The notes under the pieces are model-generated. The model made no database searches and was not told where the DNA came from. It was given only the letters and a program-made list of their open reading frames with translations. A stretch of 63,633 nt of DNA, counting the filler, from Intoshia linei (Eukaryota; Animalia; Orthonectida): assembly GCA_001642005.1 (NCBI GenBank). It is 5 parts of 5 records of this genome, joined end to end, with 100 filler letters (N's around TTAATTAATTAA, not from the genome) between each part and the next. Parts side by side here need not be neighbours in the genome. Positions count along the whole stretch, not along the records: positions 49,409 to 58,239 come from LWCA01001415.1; 4 more parts are not named here. The stretch is one strand, 5' to 3'. Below are positions 36,658 through 59,299 of the stretch, piece after piece; the first letter of the stretch is position 1, and each line of letters starts with the position of its first letter. The position numbers and the translations under genes are program-made.

Positions 36658-37329
36658 ATTTTATTTTTTGTACGGCAATGATATAATATTTGTATTAATC
36701 GTCACCATATTTTCCAATAGACAACATAAATAATTAATCATCAACATGTCCTAAATATGTGATTAAAACACAACATATTATCATACATATATACGTTAAG
36801 ATGTCCACTAGGGTGTCATACACATCTGGATTTTAATTGCGCGTAGTTAAAATTCGTTGCTCTAAAGCTATATATTCACTATGTCGTTTTTAAAATTAAC
36901 TAAAATGACCTGCTTGATCCGCANNNNNNNNNNNNNNNNNNNNNNNNNNNNNNNNNNNNNNNNNNNNTTAATTAATTAANNNNNNNNNNNNNNNNNNNNN
37001 NNNNNNNNNNNNNNNNNNNNNNNTAAAATTTTCATACTTCGCCTGACCAAATTAAGATTAAATTATAAATTAAAAGCAACATCTTACATTGTAAACAAAA
37101 TGGGACATACAGTCAAAAATACTTTTTGAATTTCAAACAAAAAATGTTAAATTGAGATACTCTATTATACAGTTAATATTTATTCACATTTTAAATTTAA
37201 ACATTTCATATTTTTCCTAAAAAAAATTCATGTTTCAAAAATTTAATTTCAGTAACTGAAATTGACTATGTTAAATTTTAATATCTTTTATATAACTTAA
37301 AAAAAAAGTTTCGTAATATTTTCACATTG

Positions 37330-38260
37330 TATACCGTCAATTGATAATTTTGAGCATCTTATTATTCCACAATATTTAGATATTTGTTAGATGGAGAAAT
37401 AAAAGAGACATTCATAGGTTTGCTAAGAAATAAAAGACCGAACAGCCTCTGGTGTAGCAAAGTATATATTTCATAACCTCGAAAAATATAATTGCAAAGA
37501 TAAACTAGTTGCTCAAACGTATGATAGATCAAGTGTAATGTCTTCTAGTTTAACCCTAATACTCCCAGTGTGACCATATGGTCACACAACATTATAATTA
37601 TAAAAACACATATCAAATTGAAACAAAGTCAATAAAATATGAAAAATTAAATTAATTAGTATATTATATAACATTCGAGTATATTAGTTATGAGTTTTCA
37701 CCGATTAGCCTCCTGTGTCACTGACAGTGGGCCAAAATGATTTTTCAAACAAAAAAAAAATTCACTGAAAAATTTTTTTATATTTTATGGTTAAAGTTGT
37801 GACAACTGAATTTAATGAATACCATATGATGAATTCATGTATTGGCTACAATTTAATGAAATAATTAGGTATATTGACGATGCGGTTTTATATATACACG
37901 CTTTTATTTGCCTTATTCTCCCAATGTGAACATATGGAATGTGAAATAACTCCATAACTACAATTGGTAATTACCTAAAATTATATATGGTGAGAAATAG
38001 GCAAGTATGTATTAACTTCCCAAATTTTTGGAAAAATCGAAGCCAAAAAATTAGAAAAATTTGTCTGGGAGTATTAGTTAAATGTGTGTCAAGCTAAAGT
38101 AAAGAAAATTGCCCCATCAGCACTGTGTACACATTGCTACGCTCATAAATTAAATTTAGTTTTGTCTCAATCAACCAAAAATATACCAGAATGTAAATCA
38201 TTTTTTATGACATGCGATGGTTTTTCTGCATTTTTTAGTCATTCTACAAAAAGAAGTTAA
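37330..38260 (+). mobile_element. hAT (ZMYM1-like) transposase remnant split by a piggyBac-type MITE
   Basis: KDRTASGVAKYIF..KLVAQTYDRSSVMSSSL / NVCQAKVKENC..HCYAHKLNLVLSQS..FSAFFSHSTKRS. Confidence 0.85.
37554..38077. mobile_element. piggyBac-type MITE with TTAA TSD
   Basis: TTAA|CCCTAATACTCCCAG...CTGGGAGTATTAG|TTAA; removing it restores the hAT reading frame. Confidence 0.85.
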
Positions 38261-38638
38261 ATATAAAAGTAGACTTAACTTAGCAAATTATTAACAAATA
38301 ATGAAATTAACGTATGCAATACTTGTAATATAATAAAATTATGAAATCAGTGTTGATTGAAAGTATAAAAATTTATGAATGAAACTAGGAAACAAAATCG
38401 TAATTCATATTTAGCTGCAAATTTAATTCATTACTCAAGTAACAAATGAACCAAAAACACTGGTAATACACAGCTAAATGTTGTATCGATACATAACTAT
38501 ATTAATTTGTATCTAACCATTGAATCCTTTTAAGTTACTCTCCAAGATAATTAATCAATTTTATCCATATGAAGAATAACTTGATCTAATACTTTTAATG
38601 TGGGTGAATGTAAACAAAATCAATTGTTAAAATTTGAT

Positions 38639-39881
38639 ATGAATTTTTTAAAGAGAACATTTAGTTCACGACGAAGTAAACGGTCACACAATTATTCAAA
38701 TATATGGGACAGCGACGCCAAAAAGGTACACGCTGGTTCGTGTAGTTTTCAAGTAAAGGTAGTCTATTTAATTTACAGATAAATTAAAATTTTAATTTAG
38801 TATCTCGGAGCCATGGAAGTTTCATTATCAAGAGGAATGGGAGTCTGTGAAGCTGTAATAAAGAAACTACACGAAAAATCAAAAATGGTAAACAAGAAAT
38901 ACAATACCACATAGTATATACAATTTTTATTTATTTAGAAGAAAAAACGATCAATTAGAGCAATTTTTTACATATCTGGCGTGTCTCTAAGAATAGTAGA
39001 TGAAATTTATTCTGTAACTATTTATATTGAATTAAATTAATAGTTTCGGTTAGAGTCTTTTAATTGACCAAGTTATTGACAAAGTCTCTTTCTGCACTCC
39101 TGACCGATACCATCGTAGAGGTTTTGCTTATATTTGTCGAGAAGGGTATACGCGACGTTGGATGTGTCATGCTTTTATGACAATTAAAGAACCTGTAAGT
39201 TTTGACCTTGGCCTTTAAATGTTTATTTAACGATAAATTATAGGGAGAAAGAATTAGTCGATGTGTGGGTGTAGCATTTTCCATTTGTTTAGGTTTATTT
39301 ATTTGTATTTTCTATAATTATGTTTTAGAATCGAAACAACGACGTTTAGAATTAAACCATGAAAAAAACTTTAAAGAATTGAAAAATCAAGAAAGTAACA
39401 CATCAAATTTTTCACGAAAATCATCGTACCGCAGAACTGCCATAATCGATTTAAAAAGAGACCCTCAATTGGCTATTATTCCAGGTTTCTATTTTTTATT
39501 AATTTTATTATTATTTTAGCCAAAAACAATTATCTATACAAATCTGCAAAAAGTATAAAAGTGAGTCCTATGACAACGTTAGAAAATACCAACATACCTC
39601 TACTAAACGGCTCAAAGTCGACATTTCCACCTTTTAAAAACAATGTTCCAAATTCACATTATGAGAATATAAACCAATCTAAAAGTATTATTCTTAAAGA
39701 AAAATTAACAGATGAAGAAGAGATATTTCAAAAAATTGACGAAATTGTCATACATCAAAAACAATTAAAACTTAATGACATACCTGCAGATCATAAAAAA
39801 CCATCTCAAAATACTGATGGGAAAAATGCTTCAAATGGTTCCATTCTTAACAATGCAGACATTATAGAAATTTCTCTCTAG
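38639..39881 (+). CDS. numb: Numb (PTB-domain adaptor), short multi-exon form
   Basis: [30 protein letters not shown]|[17 protein letters not shown]..|[40 protein letters not shown]..|[16 protein letters not shown]; C-terminus IIEISL resembles Numb FEIEL. Confidence 0.93.
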
Positions 39882-40599
39882 ATTTCTCAGTGTACATAGA
39901 AAAACAATCTGTTTATATTAAATGTTTCATTTTTTTGGTAATAATAATTTAATAATTATTATCCTGATTATAATCAGGACATTCAGAATATATGACTAAT
40001 TTTTCCTACATGAGTGTTTAAAATGTTTTGGTTGATAAATTGGGTTTTTGATAGTAAAGATTCATGTGGTTGAATTAAAAAAATGAATACTAAAATGCTT
40101 TTTTTTACAGTGAAGGCGTCACTTTGTCAGATCGTAATTTTTTTTGTCTGTTAATTAGATATAGCTGTATCGAATGTAATTTTTTCTAAAATTCTAACAC
40201 TATTTTCATTTTTTAAATAAAGGTAATTTAAGGTTTTGATAGTGACAATGCCTTTTTTGAGGTTGCAATTTATGGTAATGCTTATGATTTAAAACGCGTC
40301 CCAGAATGTATGTTTTATTAAATTTTTAGGCTGATGTTATATATAAATTAAATTATATTTTATATGTACATTAAAATTAATTAATGTATATGTTAATAAA
40401 AAGGCAAATTATGTTTTTGACCCTGAAGAACTCGAATTCGGAAACTGAAAAATAGATATAGACCCCTTCGAAAAAAGGTAATAGAAATATGGAATTTTGA
40501 TTAGTTTATATACAATACATCGTATTGTGGGTCTCAATGTGAGTGGTAGCGCCCCAGGGTTGTTTTCAAAATATAGGCCGCTGCAACAAATATTAAAAA

Positions 40600-40990
40600 T
40601 GTCAAATTTTATTTTTGATATTATGATGATAAAAGACGTATTCGATTTTTATCATATGTAAGGAATATTTGCCAAAACATTTTAACTAGAATTAATAGAA
40701 CTACAAAATTATGAAGAAGCCCAGTACCGTTTTGACAAAGGTGGAAATTTTGTATTATGGCAATGTGAGCCTTCAAAATGTATTTATCCACTGATGCATT
40801 CTGATATGTCAAAAATATTATGTTTTCCAACATTGAAAGTGAATTCAGTTCTGTAAACAAAATATTGTGTAAAGATAGAAACAAAAGTAATATATGTCAA
40901 AGAGATATTGTTATCAAATTATCAAGTATAAAACTAAGAATTAAGGAATTGCAACTGAATCACCAGCCGCAAGGATCATATGGAAATAAA
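40600..40990 (+). mobile_element. Buster/ZBED5-type hAT transposase, C-terminal fragment
   Basis: SNIESEFSSVNKILCKDRNKSNIC..IKLSSIKLRIKELQLNHQPQGSY resembles the FS..L.K.RN.L...HQ..PSH tail. Confidence 0.7.
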
Positions 40991-41037
40991 TAAACATTAT
41001 TTACCTTTTTTCATTATTAGATTTTATAAAAATTAAT

Positions 41038-41450
41038 GGGTTGACTGTTATGTACTACGTACAAACATCACCTAGTTCTGCCGAGAGAACATTTTTATTT
41101 TACCATAAAAAATAAATTCATGATGAAAATCAAATTTAAAAATCTTACTATTCACTATTATCAATCGTTTAAAGGAGTAGTTCCCAAACTTGTTTCAGGT
41201 GGAACCATCATATCACATTACTTTTTATTTTAAAGTGAATTATACCATCTTAATTTTGTTTTGTTAACATTTGCGTAAAGAATTTTAAAAACAATTATAT
41301 CCCCATTTTTTTAATTTATTAGACACAATGTTTGTATAATATTAAAAATAAAGTAAAAACAGTCCATTCCTAAAAATTGTCATAAATAGCATAAATTCTA
41401 GAAAAAATAAAATTATAAAAATTATTTTGTCATTTTCAATGTGATGATAT
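41038..41450 (-). mobile_element. Helitron-like family, 3' half
   Basis: GGTTGACTGTTATGTACTACGTACAAACATCACCTAG.. is the reverse complement of the family 3' hairpin. Confidence 0.75.
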
Positions 41451-42160
41451 ATTATTATTATATTGAATATTATTTAGTACCAATTTAATAAATACCAATT
41501 ATGTATCAATAATTAACCGAATCTTCACTTTATAAACATATTTTAAACGAATTTATGTTGTGTTTTGTTAAAATGTATCTTATTATCACCCGGAAAAAAC
41601 TGTAATTGAAATGTGGACTTTATAAAATTCTAAGACTTAGCATATTATAAAATAAGGATACTTCATTTTATCATAGGGGGCAATATATACGGCCTAAATA
41701 GGGTTTATTTAGAAATTTATGAATTATGGTGTAATGGGGTGGCGTTGGTTTAGAAAGGTTGAGAACCCCGCAATACAATATATGTAAGTAAGCATTAACA
41801 CGGTTAAATTTAAAAAAACCCAATTTCAAATACAGTTTTTCAAGACTAATGCAGCATCGCAAATTTCATTTTCCGAAATTGAGTCCTTCAGGATCAAAAA
41901 TCCAATCTCTTCTTTTTTTTTTAAAAATAAAATCACCCTAAAATATTAAAAAACACATTCTGAAACGCGTTTTAAAATTAAGGTTAATCACAGCCTCTGA
42001 AACTTACATTTTCATGATAAAAACCCAAAATTTCCCATTTTTTAAAAACGAAAAAATCAATAATCATCATATTTTAATCATAAACTAAAAAGTGTATTTT
42101 CACAATCAAAACCTAGTTTACCCTTATGATAATACTTAAAAGTGATATAAAAATTTGTAT

Positions 42161-43168
42161 TTACACATTGATAAAGAGTTTAAAAATTAAAGCAGAATCT
42201 AAATCAAGATTAATTTCATTAATTTTCCGTAGTATAGCATCAGGCTTATAACTGCATCCATTAAAAAAAGGGAAACTATCACAAAAAACTTTCCCATCTT
42301 TAATTTTAACAATTGGTTCTTTAACATTAACTCGGGTCTTTAAAAATTCCAAAAACTGAGGATTAACATTGTCAAAATTTGATCTTTTAAAAGTCAACGT
42401 GGAAGATTTTGCAAATACATGATTCCAACTCGCAAATTCATCATAATGAATTTTCCAAATATTGGGAAAATACTCTTCAATTGAACAATACTCAACATTA
42501 TCCACTCGAAAAGTTTTTGCAATATTTTGAATAACATTATAAAAAAGCACTTCAGTTTGACGGCGATTTAAATTTGTTGAAAAATTTGCAATTTTTGAAA
42601 TAATACTGGGACTAGCATTAGTGTTTGCATAAAAATTTGGATTCTTGAGGTCAGACTTGAGACACTGAGATATCTCATTTAAATTTGAGTTTAACAGTAA
42701 AGTGAAATGATGGTAAGCTTTATTGAAAGCAATTCGTGCAGCACTACCAGATATTTTTGCACCATCAGTTTTCAAAACAATTGTATCTCTAGGTCCAATA
42801 ACAACTTGGTTGACTTGAGGAAATTTTAATTTCAACAAATTTAAAGAATCACAGGTTAAATTGAGGTTAATTTTTCTATCATAGTCATCCTTAGCTGTAA
42901 TGAATGATACATTTAAATTACCTATATCATGATAAACTGTGCCTCCACCGCTTTCTCGTCTAGCAATTTTGACTTGACTTTCTCGACATTTTTTCATATT
43001 GACCTCTAACCAAGTGTTTTGATATCTTCCAATAACAACGGATGGCGTATTTCGATAAAAAAACAAAATGTTGCATTTATCTGGTAAATTTAAAAACAAA
43101 AGCTTTTCAAAAACGAGATTTTTGTAGATACAATTGCTAGTCGATACAATAACCTTTCTCAATTTCAT
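42161..43168 (-). CDS. LIPT1: Lipoyltransferase 1 (LplA family), intronless, 335 aa
   Basis: FYRNTPSVVIGRYQNTWLE, ARRESGGGTVYHDIGNLNVSF, KISGSAARI..AYHHFTLL. Confidence 0.95.
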   Translation of the reverse strand: MKLRKVIVSTSNCIYKNLVFEKLLFLNLPDKCNILFFYRNTPSVVIGRYQNTWLEVNMKKCRESQVKIARRESGGGTVYHDIGNLNVSFITAKDDYDRKINLNLTCDSLNLLKLKFPQVNQVVIGPRDTIVLKTDGAKISGSAARIAFNKAYHHFTLLLNSNLNEISQCLKSDLKNPNFYANTNASPSIISKIANFSTNLNRRQTEVLFYNVIQNIAKTFRVDNVEYCSIEEYFPNIWKIHYDEFASWNHVFAKSSTLTFKRSNFDNVNPQFLEFLKTRVNVKEPIVKIKDGKVFCDSFPFFNGCSYKPDAILRKINEINLDLDSALIFKLFINV

Positions 43169-43182
43169 TTAAAATAAAGTTG

Positions 43183-43484
43183 ATGAGTGCAAAACACGCA
43201 AAATTTATCGCACGTACAGTTTTAGTTCAGAACAAGAATGTTGATCAGGCTTATATACAACTGGATCAGTTTTGATAAAATTTTGAAATATTTATTCATT
43301 AATTAGAATCATGAAGAATGAAAGAGTTTTCGATCGAGCCAGAGAATTAATTTATTTTGAAAAACCCACATTACGAAAAAGACGGTGGCATTATGAACGA
43401 TGTCATCGAATATATGACCAAGAAATGAAAAAAAGAATTAAATTTCTCATGAATGTTAATCGATCTGATCCTTATCCTTGGTAA
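43183..43484 (+). CDS. MRPS21: Mitochondrial ribosomal protein S21 (exons 43183-43268, 43307-43484); absent from the ORF track
   Basis: MSAKHAKFIARTVLVQNKNVDQAYIQLDQ|IMKNERVFDRARELIYFEKPTLRKRRWHYERCHRIYDQEMKKRIKFLMNVNRSDPYPW*; 38-nt intron. Confidence 0.95.
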
Positions 43485-43528
43485 ATGTATCAATAAACTA
43501 TTTTATTTTTAAATTTTTTTCTATAACG

Positions 43529-46500
43529 ATGAGTAACGTCAGCAAGATTTCATGTAATGTTTGGTAAATTTTTTTTCAAATTTTTAGGTATTTTTGTCTT
43601 AATTTTCATTGTGTCCATTCAATGTGCCCATATTCACAACTCTATAACGGAACAGGATTCAAATAATTTGATTTCATTATCTTTGGATGCTTTATCAAGA
43701 AAATTTGATAAATTTTGGGTTGATGATGTATATCATGCTTTACAAATTTTGAAATTTTTAAAGCATGATACTGGAAATGTGAAATTAAATGTAATTTCAC
43801 TTTGTTCATTTTTTAATAAAATAATCTATATTAATATTATAATTATAAAGATATGTGAAAATCTCAAAAATAGTTTACCGTTTATGGAAAATGATTTGTT
43901 TTATGCTACAAGTCTTGATTCGCACTTTAAATGCCAGGTAATTTTTTTCATTTTCAATCTTTTCTCTAATTGCTTAAATGTAAATTTAGTTGAAAGATAA
44001 ACTCTTGGCATTGGTTGAAAAAATGGATTACACTACTAATGAAAAATTGTATTATTACATCGAATCTTTAAAAATTTTGAATTCCATAAAAGGTAATCAG
44101 TTTACTAAAATTACCAGTTGTAATTATTTATTTTTTTTCTAGCTGATAAAAGCTCACTTTTAATTCTCAATGCTCAATATTTACTAAATTCTAAAGATAC
44201 ATTTGGATTAAAGTAATTTTTTATATTTAATTTTAAATTTCAATTTATTTTTAGTTTCGCGTTTGCTAGTTTGATTGAATCTGGGTTCCAAAGTAAAGGG
44301 AATTATATTACAGAGAAAATACCTCATATTATTTCACTTTTTAAAAATTCTGGGAAATTTAAAAGAAGTGTAAGTTGAATAGATTTCTGTTATATTTTAT
44401 TTTTTTATTTAGATTAACAAAAATATTCTTTTGACGAGTACAGTATTCAATTCCCTTGTGCAATATTCAAAAAATGAACCCTCTATTTTAAGTGAAATCA
44501 AAGGAGTATGAAATTTTTTTCATAGTATAGTTATATTTAGTTGGTTGAATCGACTTGCAATTATGTTATGACCAGAAAATCAATACATCATGTGAAGACA
44601 GGGTGGTATACTTTGTTATTTGTCAAGGCGATTATGGATGCTAAAGTAATGAATTTATTGGTAAATTTTTTATTTCATTTTTAGTTCAAGCATATTCGTG
44701 TTTTCAGAATTTTGTCTGATAGTAATGAATTTGATATTGATATTGAACGAATTGATGTATATTTTTTATTATTACAGCGTAATTTCTAGTTAACCAAATA
44801 ATTGGTCCTGAAAAAAATTTCATTCCATTAACGAGGAATTTTTTATAAATAATGTAGATGTTACCGTCCGTTTGGAGTTACAGTCATGAAGAATTTTCTT
44901 TAATTTTAAATTTTTTCAATATCCATCATTCAAAAATCCACTTTTACCAACCCTTAAGGAAAAAATTCAATTTTAACAACCCTTAAGGAAAATATCCCAT
45001 TTTACCAAACCTTAAGAAAAAATCCTATTATACCAAATTTTACGGAAAATCCAATTTAACCAACCCTTAAGGAAAAAATCCCCTTTTACCAAACCTTAAG
45101 GAAAAATTCAATTTTACTAACCCTTATGGGAAAAAATAATTTCTGAAATACATTCATAATTATGGGTAATTACGTTTATTAAAATGAAATATAATGTCCA
45201 ATATTAACGTTTCCACTTCTCTAGATATCTGGAGATTATAGATACATAATGTTTATTCATGGTTTTTTGTTAAAAATTTTTTTAAAAATATCAATTTTAT
45301 CCCACTATTAGCTTGACATTTATGTACTTTGTACAAACAGTATCCTAGCTCTGCTGAGGGCCGACATTTTTATTATACTTATTATTATTTATTTTATCAA
45401 TGTTTTATATTTCATGTTTCCCTTGGGCTCCAAAAAATAAATATTTTCAAATATGGGTCCGTAGTACAGATTCCGTATACTATATGAATCCGGAACCACT
45501 GAATTAAAAAAATGGAAATATTTTGATTTTGATCCCACTAACCTATATTTGCAGGTCATTTTACGTAGACATAAAATATTTTACGTATCTAAAGCTTTTA
45601 ATTTGAATTAAAAAAGCTTTAGTGTAATTATGATGCTAGTCATTTTAATTTAAAATTTAACGGAATTTTTGTATCTTAAAAATATTCACAGTCCATTAAT
45701 CAGTAATTAATGTAATAATTTTTCCGCTAACGAGGAACTCCGTTAAATACGAATTAGCCCAGCCATTCCAAACGTGGGGCCTTACTGATTTCAGGGTGCC
45801 TGAGACAAATTTGAATAAATAATTATACTGATACATTTTTGTTGTATGAATTTTGAAATTTTAAGTAAAATGATATATTGCATTATGATAATATGAATTC
45901 CCACGGCTACAGGTTGTGCACCCCTGGTCTAAGGCTTAGATTGCTGTCCAAATAAAACAATTTAATTATTTTTTTGATTTGGTCGAATATTTAATTATTT
46001 TAACGAAAGGCACCAATTATACAAACATTTTGCCACACTCTCTTCCGCAAAGAGGCTCGGTACGTGTTATTCGCCAATGTTCAAAGTGTTTGGTAAAATT
46101 AGATTTTTCTAAAAAATATAGATAGAAGTGAATAGCTCACTTAGGGTTTGGTAAAATCGGGTTTTTCAAAAAATGTTGGAAAAGGAGGAGTTCCCTCAAG
46201 TGTTGGTAAAATGGGATTATAATCGCATGATTAATAATTTGACGGTAGCATTAATAATATTTAATAAAAAATACTATTTCAAACTTTGAATTTCAAAGTC
46301 TTATCGAAAAATCTACTTTTTTATCCGATTTTACCAAACCTAATGAGAAAAATGATGTTAATACAACCACAAAATAAAAAATCAAATTTATCAACCTTTA
46401 AGTGAAAAATTTCCTTTTTTCAACATTTTTTGAATAACCTCACTTAAGGGAAAACTCCGCTTTTTCCAATATTTTTAGAAAAACCCAATTTTACCAACCC

Positions 46501-48524
46501 TTAAGGAAAAATTCCCTTTGTTCAATATGTTTTTGAAAACGTTATATGCAAGTAGAAATTTTATCAGATTTGAATCTATTAATACTGTGACTAATATAAC
46601 TTTGTAGCATTTTTCAGAGGGCGCGAGGTCAATAAGGTTGGGAATGTCTGAATTTAGTATGTGATTGGGTTTAAATCAGGAATTCTTCAACTTTTTTGAA
46701 CCATTGCCACAAGATAGAAAAAACTTAATTTTTGCAAGATTATCACCCCTAAAAAAATTTATTACTGAATCTTTAATAATTATAATAATAATTTATCTTT
46801 AATAATAATATGAACATTTTTAATCTTATTTTCGGCATTACATTAGTTTATGATATAATAACGGTCTAATTTAAAATAATTTTTGAAAATTAGCCAATTT
46901 TTTGCTTGTTAAGGTTGACTTTTACTTTTTCTAATAATAACATTTTTTATTTGACTTTGCAGAAGTAACTTTGCGCACCGATCTCTTTTCATAAAAAAAT
47001 AATATTTGTTTCCTTATTTCTAAAATAGGCATTTAGTCGTTTCGTCTTGATAATTATAATTTAATACAAATTGATGGTTTATTTCATGAATGTAGTACGT
47101 ATTTAATATATAAGGAAATTATAAAATGAGTTTATTCTGAAAATAAATCGCTCGGGTTGAGAAGCCCTGGTCTAAATAGTACATTTTTTTTGCTTTGCTT
47201 ATATGTGAGTTATATTATTTTAGTTTAAAATTACTGATTTATTGAACAATGTTAATGATTTAATCAATGTTAAGGATATTAAATTCAATATGCATTATGA
47301 TAACGAGAACGTTGGAAGCGGAATTTTAGACTACGATAGTTTACTGTAATTTTGAATGAATATGTTTGCAATTTTTTTATTTTAGGAAACAGTATTTTGT
47401 AAAGCCTAAATTTGAAAAAAATGGCACTTATAAATTATCTATTGTGAATTTTGCAGATCAAAATCATTTTAAAGGAATTTGTGATGTTTCGGTTTCATTT
47501 TTTCATGAAATCAATTATTTTAGTTTAGTTTGATATCTTTGTAAGACAAAGTATTATATTAAAGGATGGTAGTGTGAGATTTTTGAAATCTGGTAATGAA
47601 ATAGATACTCCCATTAATTTTAAGTAAGATTTTTACTAAAATGCTGTTTTTTATAAATTTTTCTAGGCACACCACAAATACACCAATTTTGAGCTATGAA
47701 TACGTTAGAGGAAAGTATTCTGTTGAAATTTCCTTTACATTGGAGCAATCAGTGGAACAAGTATTTTTGAGGTTGTTTCATAAGAAATCAGACCAACAAT
47801 TATATTTCATTCTTGAAAAATCCAATAAAAAGCCAAATTATTATTCGTTCAATATTGTAATTTCACATTTAATTTATTTTTAATATGATTACATAGACTC
47901 CAAGTAAATTTTCACAAATGAGTAAGAAATACAATGGGGTTTATTCTGTCGAATTGATTATTGGAGATAGATTCATTTCTAATCCAATAAATTATAATTT
48001 GGGTTTTATCAAAACTTCTCTCATTAATGGACACACTAAAGTAGTGAATTCTGAAAGTTTACCAATTATTAAGGTTTATTTTTTATGTTTTATTGTCAAT
48101 TATAAACGTCTAGCATCAATTTAAAGAGAAACCAGAACACCCTCACAATATTATACCGTTTTTTTTTACTGGTCTTATATTATTATGCTTACTTGCGATG
48201 TTATCGATGGTATATTTATAATTTAAGAATAATTTTTTATTTTTATAATTGAATAGTTTTCAAAGCACATTAAAATTGCTTCAATTTGTTCGACTTTGTC
48301 GTTTAATTCCATAATATTTTACATGCTTTATGGAGGTAAAATTTTTTATGTCTTAATTGGTTATGTGTTTATTTTTAGCAATATTTTTGTTGTATTTTCT
48401 ATATTGGACCACCTTCAATATGATTGAAACTTTACAAATACTTATGGTTCTTGCTTTACCAACTGTTTATTTCGGATTCAAAGTTTTATCTAAGGATTAT
48501 AAGGACAGTGTTATGAATAAATAA
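43529..48524 (+). CDS. RPN2: Ribophorin II (oligosaccharyltransferase subunit), many short exons
   Basis: Signal peptide MSNVSKISC-IFVLIFIVSIQCA across a 34-nt intron (alternative start at 43557); VEQVFLRLFHKKSDQQ; NGVYSVELIIGDRFISNP; LPIIK|HQFKEKPEHPHNII..; YWTTFNMIETLQIL and three C-terminal TM segments. Confidence 0.9.
44864..46520. repeat. Minisatellite arrays (unit about 30 bp) in direct and inverted orientation, partly bounded by TACCGTC/GACGGTA termini (foldback-like element)
   Basis: TTTTACCAACCCTTAAGGAAAAA units at 44940-45135 (+), about 46060-46215 (-) and about 46325-46520 (+). Confidence 0.7.
46677..47169. mobile_element. hAT MITE with 8-bp TSD in an RPN2 intron
   Basis: CAGGAATTCTTCAAC...GTTGAGAAGCCCTG; flanks GTTTAAAT and GTCTAAAT. 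Confidence 0.75.
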
Positions 48525-51054
48525 TTTTTTTATTTTAACTCTTGGTATATATTGTTATTTTGTATTGCTTGGTTTATAATTCGTGGGAATCTTTCAGTTG
48601 ATTTAGTGTTGTTTCATCAATATTTCTAATTTAGTTTTTATTCAGTAGAAATTGCTATAAAAAATGGTCACTTTAAAAAAATTCAGAAATACCGTTGTGT
48701 TAAAAAAAGTGAATATTTGAAATAACGTATAAGGAATCTTTTAATTGATATAATAAAAAAAATTCATGAAACTTGTCAGAATTTTAAGTATATTCCATAA
48801 TAATTTTTAACATATAGTCAATACTATTCTATGTAATTGGACAAAACCATATGACCCTAGCAAAAAAAGTTAACGTACCTTTATCGGCCATAAAATTTGA
48901 AAATACTCTAAAATAAACCTGGAAAGAGTCTTTGGAATGGAAAATTTTGGAAATATCTAAATTATTCTCTTGGAAATGTGATTAAAGTAGTACAAAAATG
49001 TGAGAAATTCCGTAAGCTGACGCATAAATATGATTCCAGTAGACCTTCACAATTGTTTTCCAAAATACGTAATACATAAATTGGTAATAATGTAACTAAT
49101 GAGAAATGAAAAAATCTATTTTAGATCAATTTGCCGTGAATCAAATTTTAGGCCCCAATTAAGTATTTAATATTTTTGTTTCTTATCTATTGTTTAATCA
49201 AGTATTTACCAAACTTTTTTTCGCCCACTGCTATAAAAAATGTTGCCCACGATATGAAAATTAATTCCAATATTACCCATTAGTTTAAAATAATAGGTCC
49301 CGTTATGANNNNNNNNNNNNNNNNNNNNNNNNNNNNNNNNNNNNNNNNNNNNTTAATTAATTAANNNNNNNNNNNNNNNNNNNNNNNNNNNNNNNNNNNN
49401 NNNNNNNNTGAACAATGCCTTGATCTTTGGGTCAATCGTTTGTATCTTTATTATATTCAGACTAGTCTTTTTGTTAATTTTGAATACTTCTATTAAAGTT
49501 GTTCGAAATGGGAAATAGATTTTTCGTCTTTCAATGAAAGTACCCTTTTAATAATTTGACGATTTGTAGGTAGCTTATTAGGTTAAGGGTTAAACCGTAA
49601 AAATGACCGACGATATTATTTCCGTTTTTATTTGACATGATTTTAACAAAAAGAGGACTAAAACCATGTAAAATAGTTTGAACTGATGTTTATTTGTTCC
49701 AAATTTTGTTCATAATTTTGTAAAACTTTGATTAAAGCCTGCGGATCAAGCAGGTCATTTTAGTTAATTTTAAAAACGACATAAAGAATATATTGTTCGG
49801 AATGAATTCGGATGTGTGTGGCACCCTAATGAACACGTTTAAATCTCTGTCGAATATATGCATGATTAACGATTAGTGGATGGTCCAGATATATATCCAA
49901 TCCCCATTTTATGAATTTCTAAGAAATTTAAATTTTAGATTTAATTTGATTTGATTTTGTACAGTCATATATTTGGTAGTTTTTTTTACAAAATTGGTAC
50001 GTTTATTCGATTCTCTTCTGGCAGCAATTCTATAATCATTGAAAAAAAAATTTAATTTATGTTTAATTCTCATTTTTCCAATAATATCAAGTTCATGTGA
50101 AAAAATGTGCATTTTTTTCTGTTTCAAACATAATATTTGTTGTTAGACATATTTTCTTGATGGAATTTTATTTTTATTAAAAATATATTCAAAGTAATAA
50201 CCTTCAGATAAATCGATTCGACATAAAGGCATAATTTTATTTTTAATTCCATGTGTTTTAATTTAACTCACAACCCAAATATAAATTATTATCTGAAATT
50301 CAGATAATTCCGATTCTGATTAGATTCTTAGTAAGAATTTCTTACAGTCGCTAATATTTTGTTGGTATTTTAGATAAGTAATTAACTGATTATTTTTGTT
50401 GATTATAATCAACAACCATAAAGATCTACTAACTGTTAGTAAAATTTAAATTTAATAAAATTTAATTTAATGAATTAATTTAATTTATGTGGAATTTAAT
50501 CCATAAGCTTAATATCATGATATTACCAAGATTATCATTTAGAAGGATAACTAGCAGCGAAAAATACAAAATTAATATTATTATTATTTAAGACTTAAAT
50601 TTAATTTAATTTAAACTTTAAATGAAAAAATATATATAAATTATAAAAAAATAAACTATAACATACGTGTTCAAATTAATACTAGGTTAAAAACTTTAAA
50701 CGTCGTGCGCAACTCCACCCAAAAATTTCAATGCGGACATGATGTTTTTAATTATACTAGACACATTTTTACTAAGGCTAAGAGAGATTCTGTTATATGT
50801 ATGTTATACATCTTATGTTATATGTATTTGTCTGACCACTTGAAACTAATCGAAATCCCGCGATTCCAGGGTGCGTGCAAACAAATAGTGATGGTAACTT
50901 ATTAATATTATCTGAAATTAAAAAAATTTTCTACTATTTTGTTCAACATAGCAAAAAATTCAGATACTAAAATATACTTTTTTTAAATTGAGAAAACTTG
51001 TAAAAGTTAACACCCTAATGTACATTACATCGTTACATTTGTATAGCATACACT

Positions 51055-54000
51055 ATGTTTAAAGTCTGTTACGTACCATTTATATTCGAAAAACTAATAT
51101 TAAATATAGAAACAGTCGAAGAAGTATTGGATTCGCAAATATATATAGGTATTTATCTAATATCTATATATCTATCAATCGGTATAAGTTTTATGTGAGT
51201 AATAAGAATTTTTTTAAATTTATGATTACATTTGATGAACTTTTTATTTAGATTGCTATGACGACCCTGGTATTATCTGTGACGCAAGATTATGTAATGT
51301 TAAAGAAAGATACACAGAAATGATAATGAAATGTGCCAATACGTGTGGTCATTGCAGTATGATCTTTAATTATTTCTACTTTGATAAAGTGAATTAATAG
51401 TTTGTTTTAAAACTATAGTAAAAATAATATTTCACTAAAATAAAAATATGTTATTATATTATTATATGTATCCATAATATATAAATAATAGTATTAAAAT
51501 ATCTTTACTTATATAATATGCTTTTTTTGTCGGTGTGTGTTATCGTTTATTTCAATAACTACCAGTCTTAAACTTATATAAAATTCACATTTCTATTACA
51601 TTGTTTTCCAGAGTATTAGTAAGATAAATTTCAATCTACCAAACTCACATCTTACGGGTCAAAAAACCCAATTGTTTTTTTTTTGGAATATATATTATCA
51701 CATTTAAAATGACAAAATAGGTTGTTATAATTTTTTTTTTTGAATTTATGGTATTTATGACAATTTTTAAAATTGGGCTGTAAAAAGTTACACTTTAAAG
51801 TAAAAAATTAATGTGATATGACGGTTACACCTGAAAAAAGTTTGGAACCACTCCTTAAAATGATTGATAACAGTAAATAATATTATTTTTAAATTAGATT
51901 TTCAACGTGAATTTATTATTCAAGTATAATAAAAATGTGTTCTCGGCAGAGCTACGTCCTGTTTAAACGATTTAAACGAATTCAAACATCTATTCGTGTA
52001 TATAACGTTTTTGAACTGCAAACCTTAGGGTTCTAGCCTTGAAGATATATTTTTTATAATTTAAATCTATGATGTTTATGATAATAAAATCCGTATCAGA
52101 GTATAACTATTTTTAAATTCTCGAACTTGTCTAATTTTCAAAAAAATAAACAATTGGGCTATTTGATAAGTAAGATGTGAGTTCGTGAGATTGAAATTTA
52201 TTTTGCTAACACCGGGGACAAATTATAATAGACATGTGGACTTTATAAAATTTTAAGATTCGTAGTGATTGAAACAAACGATAACAAAAACATACAGACA
52301 AACAGAGCGTATTATATAAGTTTAAGATTTTAGTTTAGTATAAGATTTGAAGTTGTTAAATTTTAAGAATTGTAAATTTGAATGTATTCATGCAAATAAC
52401 GCAAAAGGGTTAAATTAATAAATGCTTTAATTAATAGTAAATTAATAAATTAAAATATTTTATGATAACTGTCAATTGTAGAATGTCAAGATGAAGTTCT
52501 AAATTGTAATGTTAAGGATTGTTCAAACCCTAAAACTAAGACTCTTAGCTATACTAATTGTCGAAAAACGTGCGGTTTTTGCGGTAATATATTATTTTTT
52601 TTGTGTGCAGAATCTGCATTGCAGATCTTTTTTACTTTAATCTGGATTTTTTTTTAGAAAAATTTTAGCACATTAGTGTATACATTGAAATGAATAAACC
52701 TGTATATACCATAAATGTAAAAAATTAAATCGTTGATAAATTTTAACTGATTTATTAAAAAAAATTAAATTTTTTTTGATACGTTTTTCAATATTTATTT
52801 TAAATGATAAACGATAATCGGAGAAACATCGGTACTTGATTTGAATGGTCTTATAGTATTGTTTTTAAAAATAAACACGTTAGTACTAATCGTTTATCAA
52901 ATTTTAAAATTTTACAAAAAATATTTGTTTTTGTTCTTTGATTCTTTGTTTAATTATAGTAATAATTAAGATTAATAATTAATAATAATTATTATTAATT
53001 AATAATTTAGGCTGCTTTGATCTCAAAAAATGTAACGTTACAAATTGTTTTGAACCAAATTCAATAGAGGAAATGAAACTGACATGCAAAAGAACTTGCG
53101 GCTACTGTAATTTGAAATTAAATTAAAATAGGCTGTCCATGAAAAACAGACAAAAAATTCTATATGTCAAAACTATTTTTAGTGTATATTTTTTATTACA
53201 ATAAATGAATTATGTTAATTTATAAAAAATAATTTATAATTATATTTATTAGGCTTAAATACTTTATTAAGATTAATTAATTAATTTTTTAAGTATTATT
53301 TATATAAATTTAATTTTATAATAATAATTAACACCTACAATTTACGTGTGACTGGAAGTGAATTTTTGCAATATGCCAGGTAATTTGTACTTTCTTACTT
53401 TACATTAGACGCAAAATAGTTATAGTTGTCAGTCTGTATATTTAGTCTGTGTATTTTGGAAATATTTAGTCAAAAGTAAATTTAAATGTTGATCATTCAT
53501 AGTTTCATTCTTTTTCAGTCAAAATGTCGACAATCTGGACAGTCTAGTATTAATATTTATCAATAGTAACATTAGGGCGTTTCACCAAAATTAAATTTTA
53601 GACCAGTAATATACCTTTTTTATTCTAGCTTACAACAAATTATTGCAGGCTCGATGAAATTTCTAATGTCTCACTAGTGATCCTAACTCCGGAGTTGGGA
53701 AACACTGCTTTAGACCCAATTATTATTTTTTATGATTCATAATAATATAATTCTAGGTTGACTGTTATGTAGGACGTACAAACAGAACCTAGCTCTACCG
53801 AGGGCAGATTTTTATTCTATAAAAAAAATAAAGTAACGTTGAAAATCTAACTTAAAAATCCTACTATTCACTATTATCAATCTTTGAAAGGAGTCGTTCC
53901 CAAACTTGTTTTAAGTAAAACCGTCATATCAAATTACTTTAAATTTTAAAGTGAATTATTTCATCTTAATTTTGTTTGGTAAATAATATTGTTAACAAAA

Positions 54001-57000
54001 TAAATTTAACGTGAACTAATTCATTTAATTTAAAAAGTTAAGGTGATATGACGAATCCACGTGTAACAACTTTTAAACCATTCCTTTAAATGATTTATAA
54101 TAGTCAATAATAGCATTTTTAGGTTAAATTTTCTTATTAAATTTAGTTTTCTGGTAGAATAAAAATGTCTACCCTCGGCAGAGTAGGATTCTGTTTGATA
54201 CGAAGTACATAACAGTCAAGCTAGTATATAATAATACAAAAGTATTTTTACTATTTTTTTACTATAACTAAGTAATTTCGATTATTTTCTACCAGCTAGT
54301 TATACTGATTTCATTCTATAAATTTTTTTATATTAGAAGCTACAATGTAATGATATAAAATCAGAAGGAATTAATTTATGAGACTGAAAACCATATTTTT
54401 TATTTAATTTTAGGTTGCCATGACATTGTAAAAGATTGTAAAATAGAGGATTGTTATAATGAAAGCAAGAAAGTAGATATGATGAAAAATTGTCCATTTA
54501 CATGCGGTTTATGTGGTATAATTTACACAAAATTTAAAAATTATAAAAAATATTATTGAATCAAAGTTGTTCATAATATTAGTGATTTTCTTTGAATTAT
54601 TAATTATCTCATTAATTAATAACTAATTTTGTTTATTTTTTTTCGGTGATATGGAGATATAACCTTAAATATTACTACAATATGGTATATAGACAAATGT
54701 TCATCGATTGTTGTGCCATGGAATATATCTATAACATTAACGATGATAAAAAACACAATTCAACAAAAACTAACTTTAGGCGCCTAGAAAAATTTTTCAA
54801 TTTAATTGTACAAATTAAAATATTTAGGGCACACTAGTCAGACCATAGGTTGCGGTGTGCTATTGTAATCAGGATAATGTTAATTTTTCCTGATATGACC
54901 AAATGAGATATATTTAAAGTAAATCAGAAAACATTTTTAAATCAATCTTAATGATATCAAAAATTTAGGATGCTTTGATTGTCATATCTGCAATCCAAAA
55001 AATTGTGAAATTGCAACCTGGGAAAATTACAATAAACGATATTGTCGAAAAACCTGTGAATATTGTAATTATTTATTAGGTCATATTATGGTAATAAAAT
55101 GATATTGATTGATAATCTCCTATAAATTGAAAACTAATATATCAATATATCTGTATATAATATTATATTTATATTACTATATTTCAAATTTTATTGAACT
55201 TAAGACCCAATTTAAGACCTTCAACAATTATGATGGATTTTGAATTGACCTCTCGTAATGCCGCTAAAAGGTTATTTCCATAAATAGAAGTGTATGGGTG
55301 TTTATTTCACCCGTAACAATCAATATTCCGAAAAGTCTGCTCACTTGGTCAAAGAAACGAATACTTTAAAAACACTATGTTTAAAGAATTTGTTAAATTT
55401 ATTGGCGCTTTAGCGTATTACAACTTTAAAGAGTTTCCGAAGGTTTTTAAGCTCTAAGATTTTACCCAAATTACGTATATAGCAACATGGATGCCATATT
55501 TAACTATTGTTAAGATACATATTGGGTCTATTAAATACGAACGAACAAAACGAAAACCTATATTTGATATAAATTTATGGAATTAATGGTTCAGGTTAAC
55601 TAATTCTCTTTCTCGAACCAACAATAATGTTGACGCTTGGCAGAATACGTATAGTTCATCAATATCATCTTCACACCCAAACTTATGGGTTTTTATTTAC
55701 GCTCTTAAAAATGAGGAAGTTATACAGGATAGTAGATATGCCTTGTAAATCGGAGGATGACCACCGAGAAGAAAGAGGAAATGTATTCAATTAGAAAACA
55801 ATCTAGCCTGGATCATAACTTCTTTCAATACTCGAACAATGTACGAATGTTTATGTAAAATATCTTATCATCTTAGTTAGCGGTAAAAATTTGTATTTTT
55901 AATTTAGTTTTGATTTAGATGGCCGTTCTGTTTACGTTTTAGTATATTTGTTATAAATAAATTTTAACTTAAACTTTATTACACAATTTTTATTCCTGTC
56001 TATGATAAATTATAATGTAATTATGATTTACAATACTTAATAATTACATTAACTATAACAATTCATTTAATACACATTTAAAAATAAATAAAATAAAAGC
56101 TAGTTAGGTAAGCATGTATAATATACATTGTATATTGATACATAACTAGAACATAAATGTTATGTATCAAAATAGTCTACCTGGCGCTTCATTAAAATTC
56201 CAATTTTTTTAATAAACGCGATGAAGTAATTTAAGTTTGTACATTGCTTGATAATTTTCAGTTGAGATTCTTTGAATGTGGCTTTTATGTTTTTAAACCT
56301 GGAGATTTTTGGGGAATCTATTTATGATTAGACTGGTTAGGTTGCATTCTATTATCAATAAAAAAATTTTTTGCTCTACGTTTAATGCGATTTACTATAA
56401 AAAATAATTTTAATTACGTTATCATACTATTCTTCTCTATATTTGTAATATTAATCATACTGATACCAAATTGTATCTTCTCTAATACATTTTATACAGA
56501 TAAAGTTTGATAATAAAGTTTTTTAGGTTGCGAAGACTGTAAAGATGACTGTGACCGAAATGATTGTACAAATCACGAAAAAGAAAATGAAATAATTACA
56601 TTATGTTCAAAAACATGTGGATATTGCCGTATAATTTTTTTAACACAACTTACCATTTCACACTTGACACCATTAATAATAACATAAATAGCTATATGCA
56701 GAGGCGAAACATAAATTAATATATTTGATTCAATATATTTAAAATAATCCAAATAAATTAAGAAGTTATATTTTCTCACTTTATAAGAAAAAATAATCAT
56801 TGAATTTACCGTAAACTTTATTAACACTACTGTTCACTCTACTCCTAACGAAAACTGACCTGAGTCAAAAATAGTAGATAATAATGTAATTATTGATTAT
56901 TTAAATCAAATAAAAATTTTCCATACACTAAAAAGAAAACAACTTTCTATTAAAGAAGATTTAAGGATATATGAATTAACAAACGAAGAGGTTTTGTTGA

Positions 57001-57388
57001 ATTAACAAATTAACATTTTATAAATAAACAGTGTTTAACGCATTGTTATTTATATTATCATATATAAAACATGACAATATCTAATAATCTAATTATGCAG
57101 CGGCATTCATTTTCTATATATATCATTTTTATATTAGAAAAATAAAATAGCCCTAATTCACATTAAATATTTTTATTTGTCGGTCCGGTTTTGCAGTTTT
57201 TGGTTTTTTGGAAACACTAATATTTGTATCTTATTTATTTTATCTATAATCTTTAATATAATTAAATCTATAATATAGATTGCTATGATCATATTGATGA
57301 CTGTGATTATGAAGATTGTTTCATGCCACAATTATTTTATAAAATGAAGAAATACTGCCGGAGAACGTGTGGCTATTGTAAATTTTAA
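51055..57388 (+). CDS. Poly-ShKT (ShK toxin-like) protein: leader exon plus seven single-domain exons; start uncertain; absent from the ORF track
   Basis: Exons 51252-51356, 52482-52583, 53011-53106, 54414-54515, 54969-55064, 56527-56628 and 57279-57388. Each encodes CxD..C-x4-C-x12-C-x3-C-x2-C, e.g. CQDEVLNCNVKDCSNPKTKTLSYTNCRKTCGFC. All junctions are phase 1. Confidence 0.9.
51503..52330. mobile_element. Inverted pair of Helitron-like copies (5' ends outward) in a ShKT intron
   Basis: TCTTTACTTATATAATATGC at the left end; ATTATATAAGTTTAAGA (reverse-complement 5' end) at the right end. Confidence 0.75.
53753..54224. mobile_element. Inverted pair of Helitron-like 3' ends forming an imperfect palindrome of about 470 bp
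   Basis: CTAGGTTGACTGTTATGTA... and ...TACATAACAGTCAAGCTAG; centre near 53985. Confidence 0.8.
55180..55880 (+). mobile_element. MULE/Mutator transposase pseudogene in a ShKT intron
   Basis: LRPSTIMMDFELTSRNAAKRLFP*IEVYGCLFHP*QSIFRKV; RTNNNVDAWQN; HPNLWVFIYALKNEE. Confidence 0.88.
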
Positions 57389-57420
57389 TGTATATATAAC
57401 TAGTTGACTGTTATGTACTA

Positions 57421-57785
57421 CAGTGAAATCTCAGTTATTCGCCTGATATTTCAAATATTCAAATTTCACAGCTACTGTCTTTTCTCTATTATAAGCAGAC
57501 CCCTGAAATACAAATTTTCAGTGAAATTTTTAACTAAATAAAATTTGAATATAAGCAGTTTCTGCTTGTATTCGAAAGAAAGAACTTTAAACAAAAAATC
57601 AATTTATTTCTAAAAAATAACTTCCTTCATACAATATAATGTCTAATCTATAAGTTTATACTAATTATAAAAAAACTTTTAGTGTATTTTTTATATTTTT
57701 CAAGGTCTGCTTGTTTTTGATTATAAGCATTTTTCCTTCTACTCACGAATATAAAAAGAAATCTTATAATCGAGAAAAGACAGTA
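57421..57785. mobile_element. pogo/Tigger-like MITE inserted at TA within a Helitron-like 3' hairpin
   Basis: CTAGTTGACTGTTATGTACTA|CAGTGAAATCTCAGTTATTCG...; GTACAAAC resumes near 57803. Confidence 0.5.
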
Positions 57786-58339
57786 GGTACTGTTTGTAGC
57801 TAGTACAAACCAGTTAGCTTAATATTTTGTATATTGTTTATAATTAACAATATAAAAATTTTTATTCTAAACTACTTTATTTACTCAAGATATTTATTAT
57901 ACATATTTATTTATAAAGTATTTATTTACTTGAAAATAAAATAATGCTACTGACTGTAATTTTCCCATAATTACACGATGCGCATTTTGAAAAACACCTA
58001 ACATTGGTATATCACATCAAATAAAACTCACTTTCACGATTAAAAAGAGCCATATATATATATTCTTCGGTTCTGGTCGCTAAGATATTAAAAACGATTA
58101 TTTATTTGTGATTTATGGCGTTAACGTTTACATGATTTATATATTTTAATATTATATTACATTAACTTGTGTATTTATCAATATTGAATTAAAGCGAAAA
58201 AATATTTTTTTAATATATACATTTTTTTTCCGTCTATGGNNNNNNNNNNNNNNNNNNNNNNNNNNNNNNNNNNNNNNNNNNNNTTAATTAATTAANNNNN
58301 NNNNNNNNNNNNNNNNNNNNNNNNNNNNNNNNNNNNNNN

Positions 58340-58981
58340 CACTATTTGGATTACTTGACTCATAACATATCTTAAATCTTCTGGAATTGATTTTGATATC
58401 AGATTTTCTCTATGAATCATACAATGACTGATTATATTGGGATTTTTCTGATGCACAAATGTTACAAATCCTTTCTTTTTTCTTTGCATTGATGGACATC
58501 CATCAGCGCAAACACTCACACAGTTTTTCCACTCAAAGTTGAATAGCGATACGTTCTCATTTACTATCTCAAAAATATCTTGTCCTGTTGAAGTATTCTT
58601 CAGATCTTTGCAAAAGAAGAATTCGTTCACAAAACTTTCATCCTTGATGAATCGAATAAATGCCAGAATCTGAGCTTTTCCACTTATATCAACGGATTCA
58701 TATATTTGAAATGCCCAAAGCTTATCCTCAGCTGTCTCAAAATGTTCGCGAACTTGATCTTGCAAATCGGATGATAATTCTTCAAATCTTCTTGAAATTG
58801 TACTATTTGACAGTGGTACTATTCTTATTTTTTCGGCTGCTTCAGATCCTAGCATCGTTTCAACAATAATAACAAGTGCTGACGCGATGAATACTTCAGC
58901 TTCTGTGTGTGCTCTCTTGCGTTTCGCAATCAACTGAACAACCTTGTAATTTGCAATTACAGCTTTCTCAGGTACCTTCAA
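58340..58981 (-). mobile_element. Buster/ZBED5-type hAT transposase, uninterrupted ORF truncated by the gap
   Basis: LIAKRKRAHTEAE..VPLSNSTISRR..FQIYESVDISGKAQILAFIRF..CADGCPSM..HCMIHRENL. Confidence 0.92.
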
Positions 58982-59299
58982 AAACGTTATTTAAAACGTG
59001 CACGAGAATTCAATATTAATTATTTATATACAATTTAAACGGCATTCTTTAAATGAAATAATTTTAATTGACATTTTTGCTACACGTTTCAATTTAAAAA
59101 AAAGTTGACACCCTACTATATACAGTAATTTACATAATAAAGCTAAATTAGACCCAAGAATATCAAATTATTGAGAAAATACTATAAAAAATGTTTTCCA
59201 ATGAATAGTTTTAATATTGTAATACACTTATCCAAGTGGAAAATATCCAATTATATATGTAATTAATTAAATAACATTTACGTTAAAAATAAAGTAGAA

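What the first reader, a model, noticed from the sequence alone, without database searches (positions are those of the whole stretch)
53011..57388. Dual-use Cys codon / splice donor could switch between 3-, 5- and 7-domain ShKT products
Seen: exons 3, 5 and 7 end TAY-T|GTAA, so the sixth Cys codon (TGT) overlaps the GT donor, whereas exons 1, 2, 4 and 6 carry the full Cys plus one base. Exons 4 and 6 both begin with GT, so splicing rebuilds TGT (Y-C-C-x-D, no linker). Without splicing the Cys is also kept and a stop follows quickly: CNLKLN*, CNYLLGHIMVIK*, CKF*. AATAAA occurs near 53200 and 55093. Skipping exon 4 would create T+GA, a stop. Inference: intronic termination could yield intact proteins of differing valency, and exon pairs 3-4 and 5-6 are obligate.
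Basis: partly seen in the sequence, partly recalled or inferred. Interest (0 to 1): 0.75.

Follow-up and report, generated by a model that had tools for sequence, protein, structure and literature searches.

The report
Tandem ShK-domain genes in orthonectid parasite
Seven ShK-type cysteine-rich exons lie in a row in a tiny parasitic worm; they most likely form two or three short neighbouring units that each end at their own stop codon, while the proposed splice switch between 3-, 5- and 7-domain proteins stays possible but untested.

Summary
The sequence facts hold: seven ShKT exons; exons 3, 5 and 7 end TAY-T|GTAA; exons 4 and 6 start GT; the tails are as stated. A named public model identifies Intoshia linei. 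Pairs 3-4 and 5-6 are not obligate: exons 2 and 4 end in G, so 2→4 and 4→6 join in frame as Gly. Read-through keeps all six Cys in every exon, and AATAAA is background (3.2/kb). Exons 3, 5 and 7 belong to one homologous class whose members also end the arrays here and in a paralog's model. So they are most likely last exons of tandem units (1-2-3, 4-5, 6-7). Against this, donor-like TGTAA is kept in 3 of 3 (baseline 5/37 per Cys), and the paralog's model has two Cys-Cys joins, so splicing out of the Cys codon keeps about one chance in three. No RNA run was listed, so no junction was tested. The eighth-exon question is open: the 58240 gap appears to be a contig spacer.

The parts
51055..51181 (+). 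Candidate leader exon for exon 1 (ATG, 42 codons ending in a moderately hydrophobic stretch, phase-1 donor G|GTATAA, 70-nt intron); weaker than the exon 6 leader
   Evidence: the public model P0001 starts at the same ATG but uses an earlier donor
51252..51356 (+). ShKT exon 1, ordinary phase-1 donor after Cys6
51478..52331 (.). Dispersed repeat with inverted ends (MITE-like, label inferred) in the gap between exons 1 and 2
52482..52583 (+). ShKT exon 2, ends in G; joins in frame as Gly to exons 3, 4, 5 or 6
53011..53126 (+). ShKT exon 3 with read-through tail to stop; possible donor inside Cys6 codon at 53106|53107
53740..54240 (.). Dispersed palindromic repeat (MITE-like, label inferred) just upstream of the leader-like stretch before exon 4
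54272..54316 (+). Hydrophobic stretch resembling the core of the exon 6 leader; in-frame stop just ahead of it, no ATG and no in-phase donor: possible decayed leader or chance
   Evidence: (rank 96 of 127,136); DNA similarity not significant
54414..54515 (+). ShKT exon 4, starts GT, ends in G
54969..55102 (+). ShKT exon 5 (seven Cys) with read-through tail to stop; possible donor inside Cys6 codon at 55064|55065
55230..55880 (+). Decayed coding remnant with stops, resembling a Mutator-type transposase (resemblance recalled; one 48-aa piece gave no Pfam hit); the public model takes a spurious exon from it (55279-55374)
56385..56472 (+). Candidate leader exon for exon 6: ATG, basic start, 16-residue hydrophobic core, Pro, phase-1 donor T|GTATCT, 54-nt intron
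56527..56628 (+). ShKT exon 6 (seven Cys), starts GT
57279..57388 (+). ShKT exon 7 with two-residue tail to stop; T|GTAAAT inside Cys6 codon; no downstream ShKT exon in the remaining 851 nt of the contig

Best explanation
The seven ShKT exons most likely form two or three tandem short units, with exons 3, 5 and 7 predicted to be last exons read through to their own stops rather than working splice donors. Shown: one ShKT domain per exon, phase-1 boundaries, intact Cys6 plus stop in exons 3/5/7, in-frame Gly joins 2→4 and 4→6, and an ATG-led hydrophobic exon 54 nt before exon 6. Inferred: leader-6-7 is its own transcript giving a secreted or N-anchored two-domain protein; leader-1-2-3 gives a three-domain protein; exons 4-5 are reached by skipping exon 3 (1-2-4-5, a skipped terminal exon) or belong to a unit whose own leader has decayed. 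The T|GTAA would be one inherited state of a last-exon class, and the GT starts would be the tail of an ordinary Gly/Ser/Cys codon split by a phase-1 intron. A role of the products at the host interface is a guess from the family.
For: Leader before exon 6: rank 1 of 314 ATG/phase-1-donor candidates on both strands, above the signal peptide of the neighbouring ribophorin II-like gene. Only 1 of 1051 acceptor-like sites reaches that hydrophobicity with an in-frame ATG (the set includes exon 6's own site). T at codon position 2 in 15 of 16 codons. Its 54-nt intron fits the species median of 57 bp (PMC6543705, passage). A weaker candidate precedes exon 1 (7 of 1051 reach that level). Gly joins exist without any split Cys. 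Exon 4's closest paralog domain p3 (score 47; support 89/84) follows a Gly linker and p6 a Ser. Split-Cys exons cluster as one class (45 of 3003 groupings; cross-paralog 58 of 1225; 2 tree changes vs 4.8 shuffled). The class includes exon 7, with no partner downstream, and paralog domain p7, whose model join loses Cys6; exon 3's best match is p7 (score 42). Tails of 3/5/7 (5, 11, 2 codons) are all shorter than those of 1/2/4/6 (1 in 35, post hoc), and the gaps after 3 and 5 are the two longest.
Against: Donor-like TGTAA(T/A)T is kept in 3 of 3 although flanking DNA is unalignable and the baseline is 5 of 37 per Cys; about 0.3% if independent. GTAATT scores like donors inferred in the neighbouring gene and lies in the top 8% of 5812 GT sites (a 9-site matrix). 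The paralog's model has two Cys-Cys joins, one collinear with 5→6, and the public model of this locus uses 3→4. No convincing leader for exon 4. The exon 6 leader's donor is weak (top 33% of GT sites) and would add an extra Cys. Exon 3, which should need no leader, also has a 49-codon open, fairly hydrophobic frame upstream, so such features can arise by chance. No tree branch is starred, and p7's class label is my inference from protein alone.
Confidence: 0.45

Rival explanations
1. Composite last exons: exons 3 and 5 both end transcripts and act as donors, splicing out of the Cys6 codon into a GT-starting exon so that neighbouring units fuse into longer arrays. With internal leaders this would give 2 to 7 domains. 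The reader's strict version (one promoter, only 3/5/7, obligate pairs) is a small part of this, about 0.08.
For: Donor-like sequence kept in 3 of 3 over just the length of a donor signal. Both following exons start GT. Two Cys-Cys joins in the paralog's model. This hybrid needs neither the leader nor the donors to be coincidences.
Against: The class shares ancestry, so 3 of 3 is not three independent events. GT starts are explained by Gly/Ser joins. Exon 7 and paralog p7 carry the same end with no visible partner. The public models look ab initio: this one takes an exon from a transposase-like remnant and omits exon 7. A split Cys is not needed for intact read-through products.
Confidence: 0.33
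2. One constitutively spliced gene of seven or more domains. The split Cys codons are ordinary phase-1 junctions that lost the Gly linker codon, and intron read-through is never used.
For: Linkers toggle between Gly and none at collinear positions of the two models. P0003's model carries at least seven such domains in a row. The extra Cys in exon 5 and in exon 6 could pair. Multi-ShK precursors spread over several exons are known (PMC11122761, passages).
Against: Leaves the top-ranked leader before exon 6 as a coincidence. Exon 7 and p7 have the same end without a partner. Short tails and long gaps follow exactly these exons.
Confidence: 0.12
3. The hydrophobic frame before exon 6 is a membrane-anchor last exon entered from exon 5's split donor at an AG|GT TGC site near 56342, giving a secreted versus anchored switch as in IgM (analogy recalled).
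For: The frame is open for 60 codons and holds an in-phase AG|GT upstream of the ATG.
Against: Basic residues lie before, not after, the hydrophobic core, which fits an N-terminal signal or anchor (positive-inside rule, established knowledge). The acceptor context is G-rich. Noticed post hoc.
Confidence: 0.05

Closest known systems
ShKT domain family (Pfam PF01549); solved relatives Acan1/AcK1 (6dri, 2md0), the Brugia ShK-like peptide (2mcr), Nak1 (7l2g), aurelin (2lg4), MMP23 ShK domain (2k72)
   Same: Six-Cys pattern in all seven exons; PF01549 is the best hit for 7 of 7 and passes the cut-off for 3 of 7. The exon 2 model matches only these folds.
   Different: Domains are packed with one or zero linker residues; exons 5 and 6 carry a seventh Cys; no protease or CAP domain seen; channel activity untested.
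Intoshia linei A3Q56_02430 (OAF69824.1, P0003)
   Same: Same domain type, 43-44% identity, Gly/Ser/Asp or zero linkers in a three-domain rhythm.
   Different: Only its predicted protein was seen, not its DNA; the model continues into other ShKT domains and a Sel1 repeat and may fuse several genes.
Skipped and composite terminal exons made by intronic polyadenylation (PMC10227441, passages)
   Same: Both classes are established.
   Different: Here the donor would lie inside a structurally needed Cys codon and change the number of repeats; neither is shown on RNA.
Multi-ShKT precursors: NnK-1 of Nemopilema (PMC11122761) and multiShKL of Cumia (PMC6409789); passages seen
   Same: Several ShKT domains per gene; domain and gene duplication; NnK-1 has five domains and six exons.
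   Different: NnK-1 peptides are flanked by basic cleavage sites and Cumia domains have linkers; no isoform switching appears in the passages seen.

Membership tests
ShKT domain (PF01549) | Six conserved Cys with C-x-D start and C-x-x-T-C-x-x-C end | tested here: met
   Invariant columns in all seven exons
ShKT domain (PF01549) | Profile match above Pfam cut-off | tested here: met
   3 of 7 exons pass 20.9 bits alone (2, 4, 7); the other four have PF01549 as best hit below cut-off; P0001 40.3 bits
ShKT domain (PF01549) | Two-helix ShK fold | tested here: met
   Exon 2 model pLDDT 87.9 with two helices; 6 of 48,161 chains reach Z>=2, all ShK-type; best Z 4.7, rmsd 1.2 over 33 residues. Foldseek gave none at E<=0.001. 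Only exon 2 was folded alone.
ShKT domain (PF01549) | Disulfide pairing C1-C6, C2-C4, C3-C5 (recalled) | not testable with these tools
   The folding tool does not report bonds
ShK-type potassium-channel blockers | Lys-aromatic dyad 5-6 residues before Cys4 (position recalled) and channel block | tested here: inconclusive
   A Lys-Tyr pair occurs only in exon 7, directly before Cys4; activity cannot be tested here
Secreted multi-ShKT proteins | N-terminal signal peptide | tested here: inconclusive
   Strong candidate before exon 6, weaker before exon 1, none intact before exon 4; no signal-peptide predictor or RNA available; the public model has none
Composite terminal exon (intronic polyadenylation) | Same exon both spliced onward and extended to an intronic poly(A) site | not testable with these tools
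   No RNA run was listed; sequence permits both; AATAAA is at background density
Skipped terminal exon | Upstream donor joins in frame past the terminal exon | tested here: met
   2→4 and 4→6 are in-frame Gly joins; met for reading frame only, use not shown

The most novel reading that the evidence does not exclude
A cluster of short ShKT units with their own leaders, in which the last Cys codon of each unit doubles as a splice donor kept by selection, so that units can be expressed singly or fused Cys-to-Cys into 2- to 7-domain arrays; the same design recurs at a second Intoshia locus.
Probability: 0.25. Interest if true: 0.65.

Novelty: new member of a known kind. Interest (0 to 1): 0.36.

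Why it matters
At minimum it corrects a public gene model and shows a lineage-specific ShKT expansion in an orthonectid; a search for 'orthonectid' with 'ShK' found 0 papers in the held library. If the split-codon donors are used, it would be a compact way to vary the valency of a disulfide-rich repeat protein, and a case of neighbouring units staying splice-compatible through a structural Cys codon. A few junction reads would decide it.

Tried and rejected
RNA: no RNA holder was listed for 50900-57700, so no reads were laid; this blank is no evidence either way. No whole genome is held, so the paralog's DNA and genome-wide splice statistics were out of reach. Protein searches: A1 'longer' found only P0001 among 217 candidates; A1 'near' found none; A3 'shorter' found none among 92; the 50% library gave 5 hits. 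Folding P0001 alone, to look at the zero-linker join, failed (pLDDT 33). Homology between the DNA flanking the exons: none significant in 21 upstream and 21 downstream pairs (best z 2.1). The idea that every exon has a hidden small exon upstream: all 7 have a GTA 44-71 nt before the acceptor against 39% of background sites, but for exons 4 and 5 the in-phase frame closes after 3 and 0 codons, so I did not adopt it. AATAAA and short read-through as evidence were rejected. Eighth exon: none in the window on either strand. Earlier scan notes: nothing. Papers: listings only; none of the listed titles or abstract starts describes this locus. The species' genome paper and later parasite-stage RNA work (recalled) were not listed, and no supplements were read; they could hold expression data.

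Full report
Setting. The window appears to be a chain of AT-rich contigs joined by 100-nt spacers. The stretch 49409-58239 is 8831 bp, the contig length given for the one protein hit, and 37024-49308 is 12285 bp, the length given for the neighbouring gene's contig. So the '58240 gap' is most likely a contig end, and what follows need not be adjacent. The hit, 100% identical to the first query sequence, is named A3Q56_07131 of the orthonectid Intoshia linei.

Observation. All stated sequence facts are correct. All seven exons have PF01549 as best hit, 3 of 7 above the cut-off. A model of exon 2 (pLDDT 87.9) matches only ShK-type structures (6 of 48,161 chains at Z>=2); Foldseek gave three ShK-type rows, none significant. 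A profile search of PDB sequences gave Acan1, AcK1, AsK132958 and MMP23. No eighth exon exists in the window.

What does not carry weight. AATAAA occurs 3.2 times per kb and follows the read-through stops of exons 1, 2 and 6 as closely as that of exon 3; the copy at 55093 precedes the exon 5 stop. Read-through keeps all six Cys in all seven exons, with stops after 13, 24, 5, 14, 11, 19 and 2 codons, against a random median of 7. So a split codon is not needed for intact short products.

The pairs are not obligate. The junction table shows that exons 2 and 4 end in G and exons 3 to 6 start with G, so 2→3, 2→4, 2→5, 2→6, 4→5 and 4→6 are all Gly joins. Exons 3 and 5 can be skipped, giving 3, 4 or 5 domains without any split donor. 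In the paralog model P0003, the domain closest to exon 4 follows a Gly and its duplicate a Ser. Exon 4's GT start therefore has an ordinary explanation.

A leader inside the array. An ATG at 56385 opens 29 codons with a basic start, a 16-residue hydrophobic core and a Pro, ending at a phase-1 donor 54 nt before exon 6. It ranks 1 of 314 such candidates on both strands, above the signal peptide of the neighbouring ribophorin II-like gene. Only 1 of 1051 acceptor-like sites reaches this level with an in-frame ATG. The median intron of the species is 57 bp (PMC6543705, passage). Caveats: the donor GTATCT is only in the top third of GT sites, the join adds a Cys, and the test was designed after I saw the feature. 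A weaker candidate precedes exon 1 (51055-51181; 7 of 1051 sites reach that level). Before exon 4 there is a similar hydrophobic stretch (rank 96 of 127,136) with a stop ahead of it, no ATG and no in-phase donor, next to a repeat insertion; DNA similarity to the exon 6 leader is not significant. Exon 3 also has a long open hydrophobic frame upstream without ATG, a reminder that weaker cases can be chance.

The split-Cys exons are one class. With Cys6 left out, exons 3, 5, 7 and paralog domains p1, p4, p7 group together (45 of 3003 groupings; cross-paralog 58 of 1225; 2 changes on the tree versus 4.8 shuffled, 8 of 500; no starred branch; exon 2 falls among them). I assigned p1 and p4 by their zero linkers and p7 by its missing Cys6, from protein only. 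The class includes the last domain here and the last such domain in the paralog, where the model's join destroys Cys6. That is what last exons would look like when a predictor splices out of them. The public model of this locus looks ab initio: it takes an exon from a transposase-like remnant, reads through after exon 6 and omits exon 7. Its use of 3→4 is therefore weak evidence.

TGT-AA occurs at 5 of 37 other Cys codons in these exons and 2 of 28 elsewhere, yet at 3 of 3 here, while the DNA beyond is unalignable. GTAATT equals donors inferred in the neighbouring gene; those introns come from my own chaining script, 5 of its 6 donors were used, and they are unverified. The paralog's model has two Cys-Cys joins, one collinear with 5→6. 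Pure last exons have no reason to keep a donor. A hybrid, with internal leaders plus splicing out of the Cys codon, needs no coincidence but has a lower prior. My weights are judgement: tandem units with unused donors 0.45, donors used alongside termination 0.33 (strict 3/5/7 version about 0.08), one constitutive gene 0.12, anchor exon 0.05.

Known and new. ShKT arrays made by domain and gene duplication are known (PMC6409789, PMC11122761; passages), and skipped and composite terminal exons are defined classes (PMC10227441, passages). PMC7854359 passages added nothing. A search for 'orthonectid' with 'ShK' found 0 papers, and the ShKT-splicing search listed 14 of 15 papers, none on this mechanism by title or abstract start; subscription papers are not covered. 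The locus is a new member of a known kind. The Cys-codon switch would be a new variant if RNA confirmed it.

Noticed in passing
window 54971-55066 and 56529-56627: Exons 5 and 6 each carry a seventh Cys at position 4 (C-x-D-C); the leader-to-exon 6 join would add one more Cys.
   Followed up: partly
window 56328-56510: The frame holding the exon 6 leader is open for 60 codons and contains an in-phase AG|GT TGC upstream of the ATG, like the starts of exons 4 and 6.
   Followed up: partly
exon starts 51254-57281: The first Cys codon is TGC in 6 of 7 exons although TGT dominates elsewhere; constraint near the acceptor or unsaturated silent sites.
   Followed up: no
40-90 nt upstream of all seven acceptors: All 7 exons have a GTA 44-71 nt before the acceptor (background 39%); exons 1, 3 and 6 have in-phase open frames of 45-54 codons there (background 4.7% for 40 or more).
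   Followed up: partly
P0003 (OAF69824.1): The model begins mid-domain with 12 residues 83% identical to exon 4, and ends in unrelated sequence with a Sel1 repeat; probably several genes fused.
   Followed up: partly
window 42161-43168 (-) and 43557-47900 (+): An intronless 335-aa ORF (lipoate ligase-like by recalled motif, not scanned) lies head to head with a many-intron ribophorin II-like gene on the neighbouring contig.
   Followed up: no
window 51478-52331, 53740-54240 and many copies elsewhere: A family of inverted-repeat elements is dispersed through the window.
   Followed up: no
window 58340-58990 (-): A 216-codon frame after the spacer resembles a hAT-type transposase by recall; no Pfam hit at E 0.1.
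   Followed up: partly
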